Virus record (IMG/VR): IMGVR_UViG_3300033463_006479
Span: 128,464 to 192,463 of that record
DNA: 64,000 bases
DNA from: a virus
Lineage: Duplodnaviria > Caudoviricetes
Direction: 5' to 3' (one strand)
The position numbers were made by a program, and so were the translations under genes. Numbering within the stretch: position 1 is the stretch's first letter; the number at the start of each line of letters is the position of its first letter. The notes beneath the pieces are model-generated. The model ran no database searches and was not told the origin of the DNA. It saw only the letters and a list, made by a program, of their open reading frames with translations. Below, piece after piece: positions 1,525 to 3,742 of the stretch.

Positions 1525-1640
1525 ATTGGCAGGCAGGAGTCGAACCCACACATCGGTCTTGGACAAGATTAAATACTGCTGATAATTTCTTTGGCCAAGA
1601 AACATTTTCTTACCGTGCTCTACCTTTAAGCTACTGCCAA
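1525..1640 (-). ncRNA. tRNA scaffold with ~44-nt insertion in anticodon arm (hairpin + ATCAGCAG)
   Basis: Acceptor TTGGCAG/CTGCCAA, D arm, T arm; CGGT/ACCG stem encloses TTTCTTG-GCC-AAAGAAA-TTATCAGCAG. Confidence 0.75.
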
Positions 1641-1744
1641 ATGTCCGTTTTCGTTTTGTCCTCCTTGCAAATAATGAGCTCCTCATCCAAGGCTGGTTGT
1701 TGCACTATGTCGAAATACGGTAAAGAACACTACAACCTTTCACG

Positions 1745-1829
1745 TGGGGGAGGAGGGATTCGAACCCCCTGTGTTTCTATGTAACGGATTTACAGTCCGC
1801 CGCCCTTCCACCATCAGAGCAGCTCCCCC
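1745..1829 (-). tRNA. trnY: tRNA-Tyr(GTA)
   Basis: Loop CTGTAAA, long variable arm. Confidence 0.95.
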
Positions 1830-1840
1830 ATTTACGCCAA

Positions 1841-2344
1841 CTATTTGCTGGCGATTTCTTTTACTGCATTTGCGATAACACCATTGTTCGCATTAGGATA
1901 TTTAACCTTCACTCTTGCGATAATATCTTTGGTATATCGTTGCAGTTGTTTAGTGTCAAACGTTTCACCATTGTTGTTTTTTTCAGAAACAAGTATATCA
2001 ACTTGCTTTTCGGTTTCATTGCGAACTTCCTCAACGCTCGGCTCTTTCGGCAAGAGTTTTTCAAGTTCAGAAGCCTCAAATTCGTTCACCTTTCTGTTTT
2101 CAACGGCTATTTTGTTGTCATCACCAGCCTTGGCAAACTCCTGCGCAGCCGTGCGGCAACGTTTCAGCATAGAACGGAGAATTTCAGTTTCCTTTTCGTC
2201 ATTAGGAAGTTTTGTTCCGTTATGCACGGCGTTCACCATTTCGGTCTTGACACCTTTCCAGAAATTCGTTTTTAATTTCACGGCGCAGTCTTTTTCTTCA
2301 AACATAGCGTCCGCAATGTGTTTGTCAAGCGTTTCAAAAATCAT
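1841..2344 (-). CDS. GatB/YqeY domain protein
   Basis: 167 aa helical protein with YqeY-like pattern (IADAM...LRSMLKR..AAQEF...E...LEKLLPKEPS.EEV). Confidence 0.75.
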   Translation of the reverse strand: MIFETLDKHIADAMFEEKDCAVKLKTNFWKGVKTEMVNAVHNGTKLPNDEKETEILRSMLKRCRTAAQEFAKAGDDNKIAVENRKVNEFEASELEKLLPKEPSVEEVRNETEKQVDILVSEKNNNGETFDTKQLQRYTKDIIARVKVKYPNANNGVIANAVKEIASK

Positions 2345-2371
2345 AACTTTGTGTTTTTATTGTTGTTTTTG

Positions 2372-2444
2372 TGGGGAGGGGCGGATTTGAACCGCCGACA
2401 CACGGATTTTCAGTCCGTTGCTCTACCAACTGAGCTACCTCCCC
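2372..2444 (-). tRNA. trnF: tRNA-Phe(GAA)
   Basis: Loop CTGAAAA, canonical cloverleaf. Confidence 0.95.
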
Positions 2445-2606
2445 ATTCAGATAAAGGACATTTGAATATTTTAACCAATAAACTATACAGCCTTGTTAGA
2501 CCATAACACGGACTCGAACCGCTCGGTTGCTTTGTCGTGCACAACTCCGCAACCAATTTCTTCCAAACCACACGATATTTGCAACTATCACGTGTTGTCT
2601 TTATCT

Positions 2607-2683
2607 TGGTGGACACTGGTGGGACTTGAACCCACGACATCCTGCTTGCAAGGCAGGCGTTCTTCCAACTGAACTACAGGCCC
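2607..2683 (-). tRNA. trnA: tRNA-Ala(TGC), CCA encoded
   Basis: Loop CTTGCAA, G3:U70. Confidence 0.92.
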
Positions 2684-2689
2684 AAAAGT

Positions 2690-2975
2690 GCAGCATACCG
2701 AAGTTTTTGCAATGTGCATCGGCCTCTATCGCTGCTGCGGCGAAAAAGCCTCTTTAGTTATTCGGTGAGGCTTGATTTCCGTTCACGCTCGTTTTGCTGC
2801 GGAAGTTTACTCGCATCGTGGAATTGTCACCACGCTCTCCCGCTTTGTGGCGGGAATGTCACTTGACACTTATACGCCTCAACTTTCCAATGCCGTCCGT
2901 TTTCGAAAATTATAATTTCGGTTTCGGCATATCAGCACAAGTCAGCGATGCTTGAACACCAGTCTGCAAGCACTG
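2690..2975 (-). ncRNA. structured ncRNA with RNase P-like or group II intron-like motifs
   Basis: Multiple hairpins; GGAAAGTTGAGGC, GTGGTGACAATTCCAC, GAGTAAACTTCCGCAGCAA, GCAAAAACTTCGGTAT; no ORF. Confidence 0.4.
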
Positions 2976-2980
2976 TGTTG

Positions 2981-3052
2981 TTGTCCCGACCAGAATCGAA
3001 CTGATATTACTTGTGCCAAAAACAAGTGTAATAGCCATTATACCACAGGACA
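2981..3052 (-). tRNA. trnQ: tRNA-Gln(TTG)
   Basis: Loop TTTTGGC in CTTGT/ACAAG stem. Confidence 0.88.
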
Positions 3053-3183
3053 TTACAAGCAACCGTTTTTATCTCTCGGATAGGTTGCTCACCTGCACCG
3101 CTTCCTTTTTTATGTTTCCGTGGCACTGCGGTTTTGACACGGCGAAACGAGGTTTTACACAAAAATTGTTAAAGTCAAAGAAA

Positions 3184-3250
3184 ACAAGGTGCATATGGAA
3201 ATAACAAATTTAGGTGTTGTTTGGAATAATGTTGCTGTACGCACCTTTTG
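3184..3250 (-). ncRNA. stem-TACAGCAA small RNA, copy 1
   Basis: AAGGTGC-GTACAGCAA...GCACCTT-G. Confidence 0.75.
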
Positions 3251-3288
3251 AACTATAAATTAACTATGAATGAAAAATGCCATAAAAA

Positions 3289-3355
3289 ACAAGACACACA
3301 AAAAAGATTCAAAGTGACAGTTTGATTTTTTTATGAATTGCTGTATGTGTCTTTG
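3289..3355 (-). ncRNA. stem-TACAGCAA small RNA, copy 2, with Asp(GTC)-like anticodon stem-loop
   Basis: AAGACAC-ATACAGCAA...TCAAA-CTGTCAC-TTTGA...GTGTCTT-G. Confidence 0.8.
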
Positions 3356-3457
3356 CGTATCTGGCAGGAGTCGAACCTGCGCCCTTGAGGATATGCCTCA
3401 CGTTCTTACCGACATCTCCACGTTGGAATCCCACCAACGCTTCACCACTACAGATAC
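3356..3457 (-). ncRNA. tRNA-like RNA with expanded D region and aberrant anticodon loop
   Basis: Acceptor GTATCTG/CAGATAC, T arm GCAGG-TTCGACT-CCTGC; extra hairpin CGTTGG/CCAACG in D region. Confidence 0.65.
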
Positions 3458-3537
3458 TGACAGAGGATAGGTTTGTTAAAACTATATGTGATTTGCAACT
3501 CAACATAAAGCTGTAACAATTAACATCATTCTGTTTG

Positions 3538-3611
3538 CGGTGTGTACGGGACTTAAACCCGTGACCTCCGCCGTGACAGGGCGGCATTCTAATCAACTGA
3601 ACTAACACACC
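3538..3611 (-). tRNA. trnD: tRNA-Asp(GTC)
   Basis: Loop CTGTCAC, G73. Confidence 0.92.
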
Positions 3612-3617
3612 ATTTTG

Positions 3618-3742
3618 TCGGGGGTGGTGGATTCGAACCACCATAACGGCTACCCAAAAGCAAAATTGAAATAAAATTGCTGTCCAATTCTCATACAAGA
3701 ATCGTCAAAAAAATACGTGTCCTACCATTAGACGAACCCCCG
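3618..3742 (-). tRNA. trnP: tRNA-Pro(TGG) interrupted by a 54-nt insertion (3662-3715) in the 5' anticodon stem
   Basis: Removing 3662-3715 restores CGGCT-TTTGGGT-AGCCG in a 71-nt cloverleaf with C1:G72, A73; insert holds a hairpin + ACAGCAA. Confidence 0.75.

What the first reader, a model, noticed from the sequence alone, without database searches (positions are those of the whole stretch)
1525..3742. tRNA genes whose anticodon arm is interrupted by a permuted copy of the same CAGCA module
Seen: tRNA-Pro(TGG) at 3618-3742 becomes a normal 71-nt cloverleaf if 3662-3715 is removed. That insert contains ATTCTTG-TATG-AGAATT-GGACAGCAA. The gene at 1525-1640 carries TTTCTTG-GCC-AAAGAAA-TTATCAGCAG in the same arm. 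In both, the TCTTG strand precedes the AAGA strand + CAGCA, the circular permutation of the free small RNAs. The inserts are far too short for self-splicing introns. Inference: either a new protein-spliced tRNA intron class whose motif recruits the nuclease/ligase, or stable tRNA-handle chimeras resembling unpermuted YrlA RNAs.
Basis: partly seen in the sequence, partly recalled or inferred. Interest (0 to 1): 0.8.

Follow-up and report, generated by a model that had tools for sequence, protein, structure and literature searches.

The report
tRNA-shaped RNAs with a docking handle
Two tRNA genes of this giant rumen phage carry a conserved extra arm in the anticodon stem that is most likely a permanent docking handle for a Ro60-like ring protein, not an intron, which makes them members of a widespread phage small-RNA family that I found in no paper or RNA catalogue.

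Summary
Genes at 3618-3742 (Pro-UGG) and 1525-1640 (Gly-UCC-like), both on the minus strand, are full tRNA bodies. Each has 54 or about 45 extra bases in the 5' strand of the anticodon stem (after nt 28 in Pro, two bases later in Gly). The insert is a hairpin followed by (A)CAGCA(A/G).

The insert is conserved in related giant phages, while the tRNA stems change by compensatory pairs, so these are not decaying pseudogenes.

The same module, opened at the other end of the helix, closes five free small RNAs in this window. In one metagenome contig it closes a circularly permuted tRNA-Pro.

I found no splicing machinery and no spliced junction anywhere.

In 71 of 80 unrelated phage loci the module lies beside a DUF2828/DUF7788 gene, and the predicted fold of that protein matches Ro60. 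Seventy tRNA-shaped carriers lie just upstream of that gene, against none for decoy motifs.

Caveat: the Ro60-like gene is present in three near-complete relatives but not in the 192 kb held for this phage.

Earlier AI reports in this scan reached the same reading on other genomes. Nothing here is experimentally shown.

The parts
3618..3742 (-). tRNA-Pro(UGG)-shaped RNA gene carrying the handle (125 nt)
   Evidence: Rfam tRNA 39 bits, model 1-71. Sequence. Homologues with compensatory stem changes.
3716..3742 (-). 5' body of the Pro gene: acceptor 5' strand, D arm, nt 26-28
   Evidence: Read. The acceptor and D-stem pairs covary across four phages.
3662..3715 (-). 54-nt insert: 12-nt linker, helix H, GGA, CAGCAA, 15-nt linker
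   Evidence: The only deletion that gives a perfect 5-bp stem, a 7-nt loop and a 4-nt variable loop. Conserved in L004, L010, L026 and L035-L048.
3686..3703 (-). helix H hairpin: strand b GAUUCU (3703-3698), loop UGUAUG (3697-3692), strand a AGAAUU (3691-3686)
   Evidence: Predicted in the MFE and consensus folds. The helix sequence differs widely in other carriers while pairing is kept.
3677..3682 (-). CAGCAA, the near-invariant single-stranded part of the handle
   Evidence: The consensus beside Ro60-like genes is (A/U)ACAGCAA(U/A).
3618..3661 (-). 3' body of the Pro gene: nt 29-31, anticodon loop UUUGGGU, 3' stem strand, variable loop, T arm, acceptor 3' strand, A73
   Evidence: The 15-nt anticodon arm is identical in the window and L004 although the other stems differ.
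1525..1640 (-). Gly(UCC)-like tRNA-shaped RNA gene carrying the handle (116 nt)
   Evidence: The homologue L004:10708-10827 restores a canonical Gly-UCC arm.
1567..1611 (-). insert of the Gly-like gene (45 nt, or 44 nt if C1567 belongs to the stem)
   Evidence: It leaves either the loop UGUCCAA with G33 or an 8-nt loop.
1586..1602 (-). helix H of the Gly-like gene: UUUCUU (1602-1597), loop GGCCA, AAGAAA (1591-1586)
   Evidence: Sequence.
1576..1581 (-). CAGCAG, a variant of the CAGCAA tail
5048..5127 (-). free small RNA of the same family: AAGGUGC-AUA-CAGCAA ... GCACCUU-G
4735..4808 (-). free small RNA: AAGACACU-UA-CAGCAA ... AGUGUCUU-G
3752..3819 (-). free small RNA: AAGAUAC-AUA-CAGCAA ... 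GUAUCUU-G. It encloses a CU-CGU-AA anticodon-type stem-loop.
3290..3353 (-). free small RNA: AAGACACA-UA-CAGCAA ... UGUGUCUU-G. It encloses a CU-GUC-AC stem-loop.
3185..3247 (-). free small RNA: AAGGUGC-GUA-CAGCAA ... GCACCUU-G

Best explanation
The two genes encode stable, tRNA-shaped small RNAs. In each, a side arm leaves the 5' strand of the anticodon stem (after nt 28 in Pro, two bases later in Gly). The arm is a 6-7-bp helix followed by 2-4 nt and single-stranded (A)CAGCAA.

The arm is a docking handle, not an intron. It is the signature of a large family of phage small RNAs encoded beside a Ro60-fold ring protein (Pfam DUF2828 + DUF7788). By analogy with Ro60 and its Y RNAs, it is where that protein binds.

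The tRNA body keeps Pro identity marks (C1-G72, A73, G35, G36, G37) and an exposed anticodon arm. It would then present a tRNA look-alike to whatever the particle acts on or recruits: tRNA-processing or repair enzymes, or host anticodon nucleases.

Shown: the anatomy, its conservation, the shared module, the gene linkage to the protein in other phages, and the protein's predicted fold.

Inferred: that the protein binds the handle, that the RNA is not spliced, and what the particle does.
For: 1. The insert is conserved while the stems covary. Between the window and the 413-kb relative, three acceptor pairs and one D-stem pair change on both sides, while the insert keeps the hairpin and CAGCAA. 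Ten distinct Pro versions come from 13 further contigs.

2. The same module sits after nt 28 in Gly, Asp, Ile and Lys bodies, after nt 29 in a Pro-AGG body, and in the anticodon arm of a type-II UCA body whose exact junction is ambiguous. One copy has a helix of a different sequence, CCUC/GAGG.

3. The module also closes five free 63-80-nt RNAs in this window that have no tRNA body to splice.

4. L039:3821-3952 is a circularly permuted tRNA-Pro. Its two ends form the helix, and it folds as predicted (z = -3.4). It matches Rfam YrlA positions 23-86 at 37 bits.

5. The DUF2828/DUF7788 protein of relative G001 models at pLDDT 90.6. Its top 13 PDB matches are all Ro60/TROVE structures, including a phage Ro60.

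6. In 80 IMG/VR loci holding this protein, stem+CAGCAA modules lie on the gene's strand within 2 kb upstream or 1.5 kb downstream in 71 loci. That is 291 hits against 4-15 for five decoy hexamers.

7. Seventy tRNA-shaped carriers (51 distinct) lie there, against 0 for the decoys. All are on the gene's strand. The 55 in loci with full flanks lie 136-2117 nt upstream of the gene. Rfam-144-nt 'tRNAs' at those places.

8. At least 27 of the 70 carriers have no room for an anticodon arm, and only 13 of the 51 distinct ones keep a canonical arm. Removal of the module therefore cannot be its general purpose.

9. The carriers duplicate plain isoacceptors in the same arrays: Pro-UGG and Gly-UCC here, and Pro, Gly and Asp in L004.

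10. Two Pro lineages have 8-nt anticodon loops, and the window's Gly copy has G33.

11. All three near-complete relatives with the module encode the protein.
Against: - No DUF2828, DUF7788 or TROVE gene is in the 192 kb held for this phage. This includes the place next to the portal gene where a relative has it. The record is rated 70% complete.
- In the three complete relatives the protein gene is not next to the RNAs.
- The Pro anticodon arm and Pro identity marks are strictly kept across lineages. That would also fit a tRNA that is eventually used in translation.
- A permuted gene and an insert at a nearly fixed place are also what splicing systems produce in archaea and red algae (my own knowledge).
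- No binding, expression or RNA-end data exist.
Confidence: 0.6

Rival explanations
1. A new class of protein-spliced tRNA intron. A nuclease recognises the hairpin and CAGCAA, cuts at both junctions, and a ligase (phage Rnl2-type or host RtcB) joins nt 28 to nt 29. The product is a working tRNA-Pro or tRNA-Gly.
For: - Exact removal restores canonical anticodon arms in Pro, Gly (L004), Asp, Ile and Lys carriers.
- The junction sits at a nearly fixed place and usually reads CG^UA.
- Pro identity elements are kept.
- A permuted tRNA-Pro exists whose break point is the insert's hairpin loop, as in organisms that splice permuted tRNAs.
- An Rnl2-type ligase is present in 4 of 5 records, with RlaP and a PNK-like kinase in this genome.
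- Lak megaphages have unexplained tRNA introns (PMC6784885).
Against: - No RtcB or EndA in five phage records, three of them at least 96% complete.
- No bulge-helix-bulge can be drawn at the junctions (inspection).
- The spliced junction is absent from 241 million metagenome records.
- The same module occurs on free RNAs and on carriers with no anticodon loop, where nothing could be spliced.
- The carriers are redundant with plain tRNAs.
- 8-nt loops and G33 are tolerated.
Confidence: 0.12
2. The handle is real but docks a different partner. Candidates are the host's own Ro60/Rsr (Bacteroides encodes a TROVE protein), another phage protein, or an RNA that pairs with CAGCAA. The linkage to DUF2828 in other phages would then be indirect.
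For: - This genome fragment has the RNAs but no DUF2828 gene.
- In G001, G003 and G004 the gene and the RNAs are far apart.
- The TROVE model hits Bacteroides thetaiotaomicron in the control set.
Against: - Same-strand adjacency in 71 of 80 loci, with about 25-fold enrichment over decoys, is the pattern known for Ro60 and Y RNA genes (PMC4201824).
- All three complete relatives encode the protein.
- The handle does not match the YrlA model's Ro-binding stem.
Confidence: 0.12
3. A caged spare tRNA. The handle first docks the RNA on the Ro60-like repair particle. It is then cut out and the body is sealed by the neighbouring ligase, releasing a usable tRNA only when needed, for example after host anticodon nucleases fire.
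For: - The Ro60-like gene lies next to an RNA ligase in G004, L058 and G001. RlaP and a PNK-like kinase lie close by in L058.
- The carriers that keep an arm keep canonical U33 and R37 and real anticodons.
Against: - The same negatives as for plain splicing.
- Most family members have no arm to release.
- The idea is purely inferential.
Confidence: 0.08
4. Decaying pseudo-tRNAs disrupted by a small mobile or duplicated DNA element, with no RNA function.
For: - The window's Gly-like copy has an abnormal anticodon loop and folds no better than shuffled sequence (z = -0.4).
- The array holds several other odd tRNA-like genes.
Against: - The inserts and bodies are conserved over deep divergence with compensatory pairs.
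- The module's helix covaries while CAGCAA stays fixed in dozens of phages.
- No target-site duplication is visible at the junctions (inspection).
Confidence: 0.03

Closest known systems
YrlA-type Y RNAs bound by bacterial and phage Ro60/Rsr (Rfam RF02553; Chen et al. 2014, PMC4201824)
   Same: - A small RNA that joins a protein-binding stem to a tRNA-like body with T arm, D arm and acceptor stem.
- It is encoded beside a Ro60-fold ring protein, often in an RNA-repair neighbourhood with an RNA ligase.
- The permuted tRNA-Pro of L039 has the YrlA layout and matches the model's tRNA-like core (37 bits).
   Different: - The window's genes have the opposite layout. Normal tRNA ends are kept and the handle is an internal side arm capped by a loop.
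- A complete anticodon arm is retained.
- The handle (helix plus ACAGCAA) does not match YrlA's Ro-binding stem, and no window gene reaches the model.
- The protein is DUF2828/DUF7788, which the TROVE model does not detect.
- In this lineage the RNAs sit in the tRNA array, far from the protein gene.
'Enigmatic' tRNA introns of Lak megaphages (Devoto et al. 2019, PMC6784885)
   Same: Short, non-group-I inserts in the tRNA genes of huge gut phages. They are conserved across cohorts, match nothing in Rfam and have no known splicing mechanism.
   Different: - Lak inserts are 79-114 nt and lie in the anticodon loop after nt 37.
- They begin UACAG/UAACAG plus a small hairpin and enclose a nested tRNA-like piece.
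- Neither CAGCAA nor TTCTTG occurs in the paper's intron table as held.
Archaeal and eukaryal protein-spliced tRNA introns, with permuted and split tRNA genes (Cyanidioschyzon, Nanoarchaeum; my own knowledge, and review PMC4090602, title and abstract only)
   Same: - Short inserts at a defined place in the tRNA.
- Co-existence of interrupted and circularly permuted genes whose break point equals the insert position.
   Different: - No bulge-helix-bulge motif.
- No EndA and no RtcB in the phages.
- A conserved sequence motif takes the place of a purely structural one.
- The module also occurs on RNAs with nothing to splice.
Group I introns in bacterial and phage tRNA anticodon loops
   Same: They interrupt a tRNA gene in the anticodon arm.
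   Different: - The inserts are 45-54 nt, far below ribozyme size.
- They lie in the stem, not the loop.
- No Rfam intron or ribozyme match overlaps them.

Membership tests
tRNA (Rfam RF00005) | Score at or above the gathering cut-off (29 bits) over the whole model | tested here: met
   3618-3742 scores 39 bits over model 1-71 with relaxed filters. It is missed with default filters and by ARAGORN without the intron option.
tRNA (Rfam RF00005) | The same test for the second gene, 1525-1640 | tested here: not met
   No match at E <= 10. ARAGORN calls it only with a forced intron and a poor anticodon arm.
Decoding tRNA | Contiguous 5-bp anticodon stem, 7-nt loop, U33 and R37 in the mature RNA | tested here: inconclusive
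   Met only if the insert is removed (Pro). Not met even then for the window's Gly-like gene (G33 or an 8-nt loop), nor for the Pro genes of the L010 and L036 lineages (8-nt loop).
Protein-spliced (BHB) tRNA intron | Bulge-helix-bulge at the two junctions | tested here: not met
   By inspection, the 4 nt before the 5' junction cannot pair with the intron's 3' end. The predicted folds show two hairpins and no BHB.
Protein-spliced (BHB) tRNA intron | Splicing endonuclease (EndA, PF01974) and RtcB ligase (PF01139) available | tested here: not met
   0 of 5 phage records hold either. A host RtcB cannot be excluded.
Protein-spliced (BHB) tRNA intron | A spliced product exists | tested here: inconclusive
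   The exact spliced junction has 0 matches in 241 million metagenome records. Mature tRNAs are rarely assembled into contigs, so the absence is weak evidence.
Group I intron | Ribozyme core of about 200 nt or more with P3-P9 | tested here: not met
   The inserts are 54 and about 45 nt. No Rfam intron match overlaps them.
YrlA Y RNA (Rfam RF02553) | Score at or above the gathering cut-off (69 bits) | tested here: not met
   No match to either window gene at E <= 10. The permuted relative L039 reaches 37.3 bits on model positions 23-86 only.
YrlA Y RNA (Rfam RF02553) | Encoded with a TROVE-domain Ro60 | tested here: not met
   PF05731 is absent from all 5 records. A DUF2828/DUF7788 protein with a Ro60 fold takes its place in 3 of them.
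Unnamed hairpin+CAGCAA handle RNAs of phages with a Ro60-like (DUF2828) protein | A 6-7-bp helix, then 2-4 nt, then (A)CAGCAA on the strand that follows AAGR | tested here: met
   Both window genes and five free RNAs have it. The same consensus is found beside 71 of 80 DUF2828 genes.
Unnamed hairpin+CAGCAA handle RNAs of phages with a Ro60-like (DUF2828) protein | tRNA-shaped carrier with the handle in the anticodon arm | tested here: met
   The detector that finds 70 carriers upstream of DUF2828 genes (0 for decoys) also finds the window's Pro gene and its relatives.
Unnamed hairpin+CAGCAA handle RNAs of phages with a Ro60-like (DUF2828) protein | The genome encodes the DUF2828/DUF7788 protein | tested here: inconclusive
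   Present in 3 of 3 near-complete relatives. Not found in this 192-kb record (70% complete) by HMM or tblastn.
Unnamed hairpin+CAGCAA handle RNAs of phages with a Ro60-like (DUF2828) protein | The protein binds the handle | not testable with these tools
   Needs co-immunoprecipitation, gel shift or a structure.

The most novel reading that the evidence does not exclude
The handle-bearing tRNAs are a caged reserve. They dock on a Ro60-like repair particle, and a nuclease with the neighbouring RNA ligase then excises the handle and reseals the anticodon stem. This would be a bacterial-virus counterpart of archaeal tRNA splicing. It would also explain the circularly permuted tRNA-Pro gene, which would mature through a circular intermediate.
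Probability: 0.1. Interest if true: 0.92.

Novelty: new variant of a known kind. Interest (0 to 1): 0.62.

Why it matters
Ro60 and its Y RNAs are known from animals, some bacteria and a few phages, and their function in bacteria is still unclear.

If this reading is right, a much larger set of phages carries a divergent Ro60-like protein. Its partner RNAs are built on real tRNA bodies in three layouts: a side arm on an ordinary tRNA, a permuted tRNA closed by the handle, and a bare anticodon stem-loop closed by the handle.

That gives a simple sequence signature (helix plus ACAGCAA) for finding these RNAs. It explains why tRNA finders miss or mislabel "tRNAs with introns" in giant phages. It also offers a tractable system to ask what a Ro60 particle does with a tRNA look-alike during infection: decoy for anticodon nucleases, platform for tRNA repair, or something else.

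It also warns against counting such genes as decoding tRNAs, or as evidence for tRNA splicing in phages.

Tried and rejected
- ARAGORN with introns places the insert in the anticodon loop and gives wrong identities (Arg-UCU, Leu-UAA) with poor stems.
- An exhaustive deletion scan judged by ARAGORN calls was useless, because ARAGORN accepts hundreds of deletions. I replaced it with an explicit stem, loop and variable-loop test.
- Exact searches with the 5' halves of the two genes in IMG/VR found only an unrelated tRNA-Gln, or nothing.
- Searches for RtcB, EndA, T4 Rnl1 and TROVE in the phage records were negative. The one exception is an Rnl1 in G004.
- Pfam and PHROG scans of the ORFs inside the tRNA array gave no nuclease or ligase candidate. 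They gave TnpB, an HNH endonuclease, a glycosyltransferase, a DNA methylase and a YqeY-like protein. An all-against-all comparison of array ORFs gave no shared enzyme.
- I looked for handle RNAs next to the DUF2828 genes of G001, G003 and G004 and found none.
- Metagenome records could not be searched as whole records.
- Pairing of CAGCAA with the 3' junction (AGCAA/UUGCU) holds only where nt 29-31 are GCU (the Pro genes and one Ile gene). I dropped it as a general feature.
- A phage T4 MotA-box reading of the reverse complement (TTGCTGTA) was considered. I dropped it because the flanking helix covaries as an RNA structure would.
- I did not build a covariance model of the carriers, because the MAFFT alignment of the inserts was not clean enough. 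A rule-based detector with decoy motifs was used instead.
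Full report
**Where the window lies.** The window is the last 64 kb of a 192-kb IMG/VR record of an uncultured giant phage, rated 70% complete. A tRNA array runs on the minus strand from about contig position 117.9 kb to 134 kb. ARAGORN finds 17 ordinary tRNAs in the window and 30 in the whole array. Window position equals contig position minus 128463.

**Checking the observation: the Pro gene.** Read on the minus strand, 3742->3618 is a complete tRNA body interrupted by 54 nt.
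- It has a 7-bp acceptor stem with C1-G72 and A73, and a D arm.
- Then come two bases of the anticodon stem (CG), the insert at 3715-3662, and the remaining three stem bases.
- The loop is UUUGGGU, followed by the 3' strand AGCCG, a 4-nt variable loop and the T arm.
- Deleting 3715-3662 is the only deletion that gives a perfect stem, a 7-nt loop and a normal variable loop.
- Rfam's tRNA model matches the whole gene at 39 bits when filters are relaxed. Default Rfam and ARAGORN miss it.

**Checking the observation: the Gly-like gene.** The second gene, 1640->1525, has acceptor, D and T arms and an insert of about 45 nt two bases further into the same strand. After removal it has either G33 or an 8-nt loop around UCC. 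Rfam does not call it.

**The inserts are conserved.** A YqeY-like gene inside the array led to a 413-kb relative with a syntenic array (locus L004). At the same two array positions it has a Pro and a Gly gene with the same kind of insert, plus an Asp gene with a third.
- Between the two phages the Pro acceptor stem differs at three pairs and the D stem at one, each changed on both sides.
- The 15-nt anticodon arm is identical, and the insert keeps the hairpin and CAGCAA while its loop and linkers vary.
- A pattern scan for the module in IMG/VR gave matches in 22 loci. Seven matches lie inside tRNA anticodon arms, in 6 loci from four giant-phage genomes. They are Pro-UGG (two), Pro-AGG, Gly-UCC and a type-II body with UCA that was hit in two loci.
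- Looking at the arrays added Ile and Lys bodies in which CAGCAA is CAGCGA, CUGCAA or CGCGAU.
- A metagenome scan gave ten distinct Pro versions from 13 further contigs.
- In the Pro-UGG, Gly (L004), Asp, Ile and Lys genes the junction is after nt 28, in the Pro-AGG gene after nt 29, and it usually reads CG^UA.

**The module has other carriers.** Five 63-80-nt elements between the window's tRNAs share one plan: AAGR plus 3-4 variable bases, then 2-3 nt, CAGCAA, 40-55 nt, the complement of the first strand ending YCUU, and a G.
- The helix differs from copy to copy (GACAC, GAUAC, GGUGC) with the partner strand changing in step. Some copies enclose an anticodon-type stem-loop.
- The helix and the position of CAGCAA after the AAGR strand are the same as in the tRNA inserts. 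The only difference is which end of the helix is closed.
- In contig L039 the same helix (GAGACGC/GCGUCUC) is formed by the two ends of a circularly permuted tRNA-Pro.
- The order there is helix strand, UAA-CAGCAA, linker, nt 29 to 73, an 8-9-nt loop, nt 1 to 28, linker, helix strand.
- It folds exactly so, with z = -3.4.
- Its T arm, closed acceptor stem and D arm match positions 23-86 of Rfam's YrlA model at 37 bits, below the 69-bit cut-off.

**Test of the intron reading.**
- RtcB and the splicing endonuclease EndA are absent from five phage records that carry the module. Three of these are at least 96% complete.
- An Rnl2-type RNA ligase is present in four of the five. Such ligases are common in T4-like phages in any case (my own knowledge).
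- No bulge-helix-bulge can be drawn. The predicted folds show the module hairpin and, in Pro genes only, a second hairpin in which AGCAA pairs with the 3' junction.
- The exact spliced junction, with the variants of three lineages allowed, has no match in 241 million metagenome records. So there are neither insert-free orthologues nor assembled spliced transcripts. This is weak evidence, because mature tRNAs seldom assemble.
- The carriers duplicate ordinary isoacceptors in the same arrays: Pro-UGG and Gly-UCC here, and Pro, Gly and Asp in L004. I read the same for Ile and Lys in L015.
- Two separate Pro lineages, each seen in more than one sample, have an 8-nt anticodon loop.

The only published precedent I found is the "enigmatic" tRNA introns of Lak megaphages. 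They are 79-114 nt, sit after nt 37 and have a different sequence.

**Test of the handle reading.** Earlier AI notes from this scan, made on other genomes, proposed that hairpin+CAGCAA is the handle of a Ro60-like DUF2828 protein. I treated this as a lead and tested it.
- *The gene.* DUF2828 is present in all three near-complete relatives and absent from the two fragments, including this genome.
- *The fold.* The G001 protein (506 aa) is DUF2828 + DUF7788 with a weak vWA signal. Its AlphaFold model, from 45 aligned sequences, has pLDDT 90.6. Its 13 best PDB matches are all Ro60/TROVE structures, with Foldseek E-values from 2e-9 to 4e-5 and TM 0.4-0.6 over the full length. They include a Thermus phage Ro60 and Deinococcus Rsr.
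- *Neighbours.* The gene sits next to an RNA ligase in G004, L058 and G001. RlaP and a PNK-like kinase lie close by in L058.
- *Linkage.* In 80 IMG/VR loci holding the protein, a stem+CAGCAA detector found 291 hits on the gene's strand within 2 kb upstream or 1.5 kb downstream, in 71 loci. Five decoy hexamers of the same composition gave 4-15 hits.
- *The motif alone.* In the flanks of the 55 loci with full flanks, CAGCAA itself occurs 305 times, against 31-44 for the decoys. Two thirds of these are attached to a helix.
- *tRNA-shaped carriers.* A stricter detector requires a 7/7 acceptor stem, a T arm and the hairpin+CAGCAA between them. It found 70 carriers (51 distinct) in 36 loci, all on the gene's strand. 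The 55 in loci with full flanks lie 136-2117 nt upstream of the gene start. No decoy gave any.
- *Same detector, this window.* The same detector finds the window's Pro gene and its relatives.
- *Rfam.* Rfam-144-nt "tRNAs" at those places and no YrlA.
- *The anticodon arm is optional.* In 27 of the 70 there is no room for an anticodon arm, because the module replaces the loop. Only 13 of the 51 distinct carriers keep a canonical arm (Asn, Thr, Ser, Arg, Asp), with the junction again after about nt 28.

A module that is so often present where nothing can be restored by removing it is better explained as a functional part of the RNA than as an intron.

**What remains open for this genome.**
- No DUF2828, DUF7788 or TROVE gene is in the 192 kb held.
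- tblastn with the protein of a relative finds nothing, although that relative's portal protein is 94% identical to this phage's.
- The place beside the portal, where that relative has the gene, is differently arranged here.
- This genome does keep the RlaP and PNK-like kinase genes at contig 4.7-6.7 kb and an Rnl2-type ligase at 97 kb.
- The gene may lie in the missing 30%. Otherwise the handle may use another partner.
- In the three complete relatives the gene is far from the RNAs, unlike in most other phages.

**Mechanism.** I commit to this reading. The genes make stable 116-125-nt RNAs in which an ordinary tRNA fold carries a side arm, and that side arm binds a Ro60-like ring protein.

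Steps shown: the anatomy, conservation and covariation, the shared module in three layouts, genomic linkage of the module and of tRNA-shaped carriers to the protein gene, and the protein's predicted fold.

Steps inferred: binding, the absence of splicing, and the purpose.

The strict conservation of the Pro anticodon arm and Pro identity marks suggests that the body must still be recognised as tRNA-Pro by something. Plausible candidates are tRNA enzymes, repair enzymes or host anticodon nucleases, but I have no evidence to choose among them.

**Comparison with known systems and novelty.** It works like Ro60 with YrlA, but it is not a member by Rfam's or Pfam's tests. The layout is the reverse of YrlA in the window's genes, a full anticodon arm is kept, and the handle sequence is different. 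"DUF2828" occurs in five papers of the library, none about RNA or phages by their titles and abstracts. My searches for phage tRNA introns and phage Ro60 RNAs gave only the Lak paper, the YrlA papers and a jumbo-phage survey that notes TROVE proteins with a tRNA-like partner.

I therefore rate it a new variant of a known kind. The same family was already noted by this scan on other genomes. That is neither support nor a reason to mark it down.

Noticed in passing
L039:3821-3952 (+), metagenome contig JAEEGL010352853.1: A circularly permuted tRNA-Pro(UGG) gene. The 3' half (nt 29-73) comes first, an 8-9-nt loop joins the acceptor ends, and the 5' half (nt 1-28) follows. The RNA's termini form the handle helix next to CAGCAA. 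It partly matches Rfam YrlA (37 bits). I know of no permuted tRNA gene reported from a phage or bacterium.
   Followed up: partly
window 3850-4050 (-): A 200-nt tRNA-like gene with acceptor, D and T arms and an insert of about 120 nt in the anticodon arm. The insert has no CAGCAA module. ARAGORN calls it Gly(CCC) with a 120-nt intron. An HNH endonuclease ORF lies just upstream at 4185-4595 (-).
   Followed up: no
window 3356-3460 (-) and 1424-1497 (-): Two further tRNA-like genes that the finders miss. One is a roughly 105-nt RNA with acceptor stem GUAUCUG/CAGAUAC and a good T arm. The other is a roughly 74-nt RNA with acceptor UGAACCG/CGGUUCA and a 6- or 8-nt anticodon loop around UUAA.
   Followed up: no
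contig 124858-124955 (-), about 3.5 kb before the window (L002:9858-9955): A minimal tRNA-like RNA closed by a long stem (GUCUGCAA...UUGCAGAC). It has the embedded handle (GUUUUUCU-loop-AGAAAAC-UA-CAGCAA) and a T-arm-like hairpin, and it sits right after the plain tRNA-Pro(UGG). A further free handle RNA lies near L002:3530-3600 (-).
   Followed up: no
L010:1689-1811, L038, L041, and L036/L044: Two separate lineages of the handle-bearing Pro gene have five U's instead of four before GGG, which gives an 8-nt anticodon loop. Each was seen in more than one sample, so it is not a sequencing slip.
   Followed up: partly
L058 (ENA contig, 43 kb), G004:100766-102681, and G000 contig 4753-7759: An RNA-repair-type neighbourhood surrounds the Ro60-like gene in relatives: RlaP, an AAA_33/PNK-like kinase, DUF2828/DUF7788 and an Rnl2-type RNA ligase. 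This genome keeps RlaP, the kinase and the following 345-aa gene at its 5' end, but not the Ro60-like block.
   Followed up: partly
L015:2836-2955 (-): A tRNA-Trp(CCA) with a different 46-nt insert 3' of the anticodon. The insert begins UACAGAGUAAGG, resembling the start of the Lak megaphage tRNA introns (UAACAGAGUAAAC; PMC6784885, Table S6).
   Followed up: no
L002:6971-8632 (-), contig about 121971-123632: A 553-aa TnpB/Cas12f-like ORF sits inside the tRNA array (Pfam Cas12f1-like_TNB, 1e-16).
   Followed up: no
L039:1627-1707 (+): Rfam reports a tmRNA match (60.6 bits, model 1-374 over only 81 nt) inside a phage-type tRNA array. It is probably a tRNA-like fragment and not a tmRNA.
   Followed up: no
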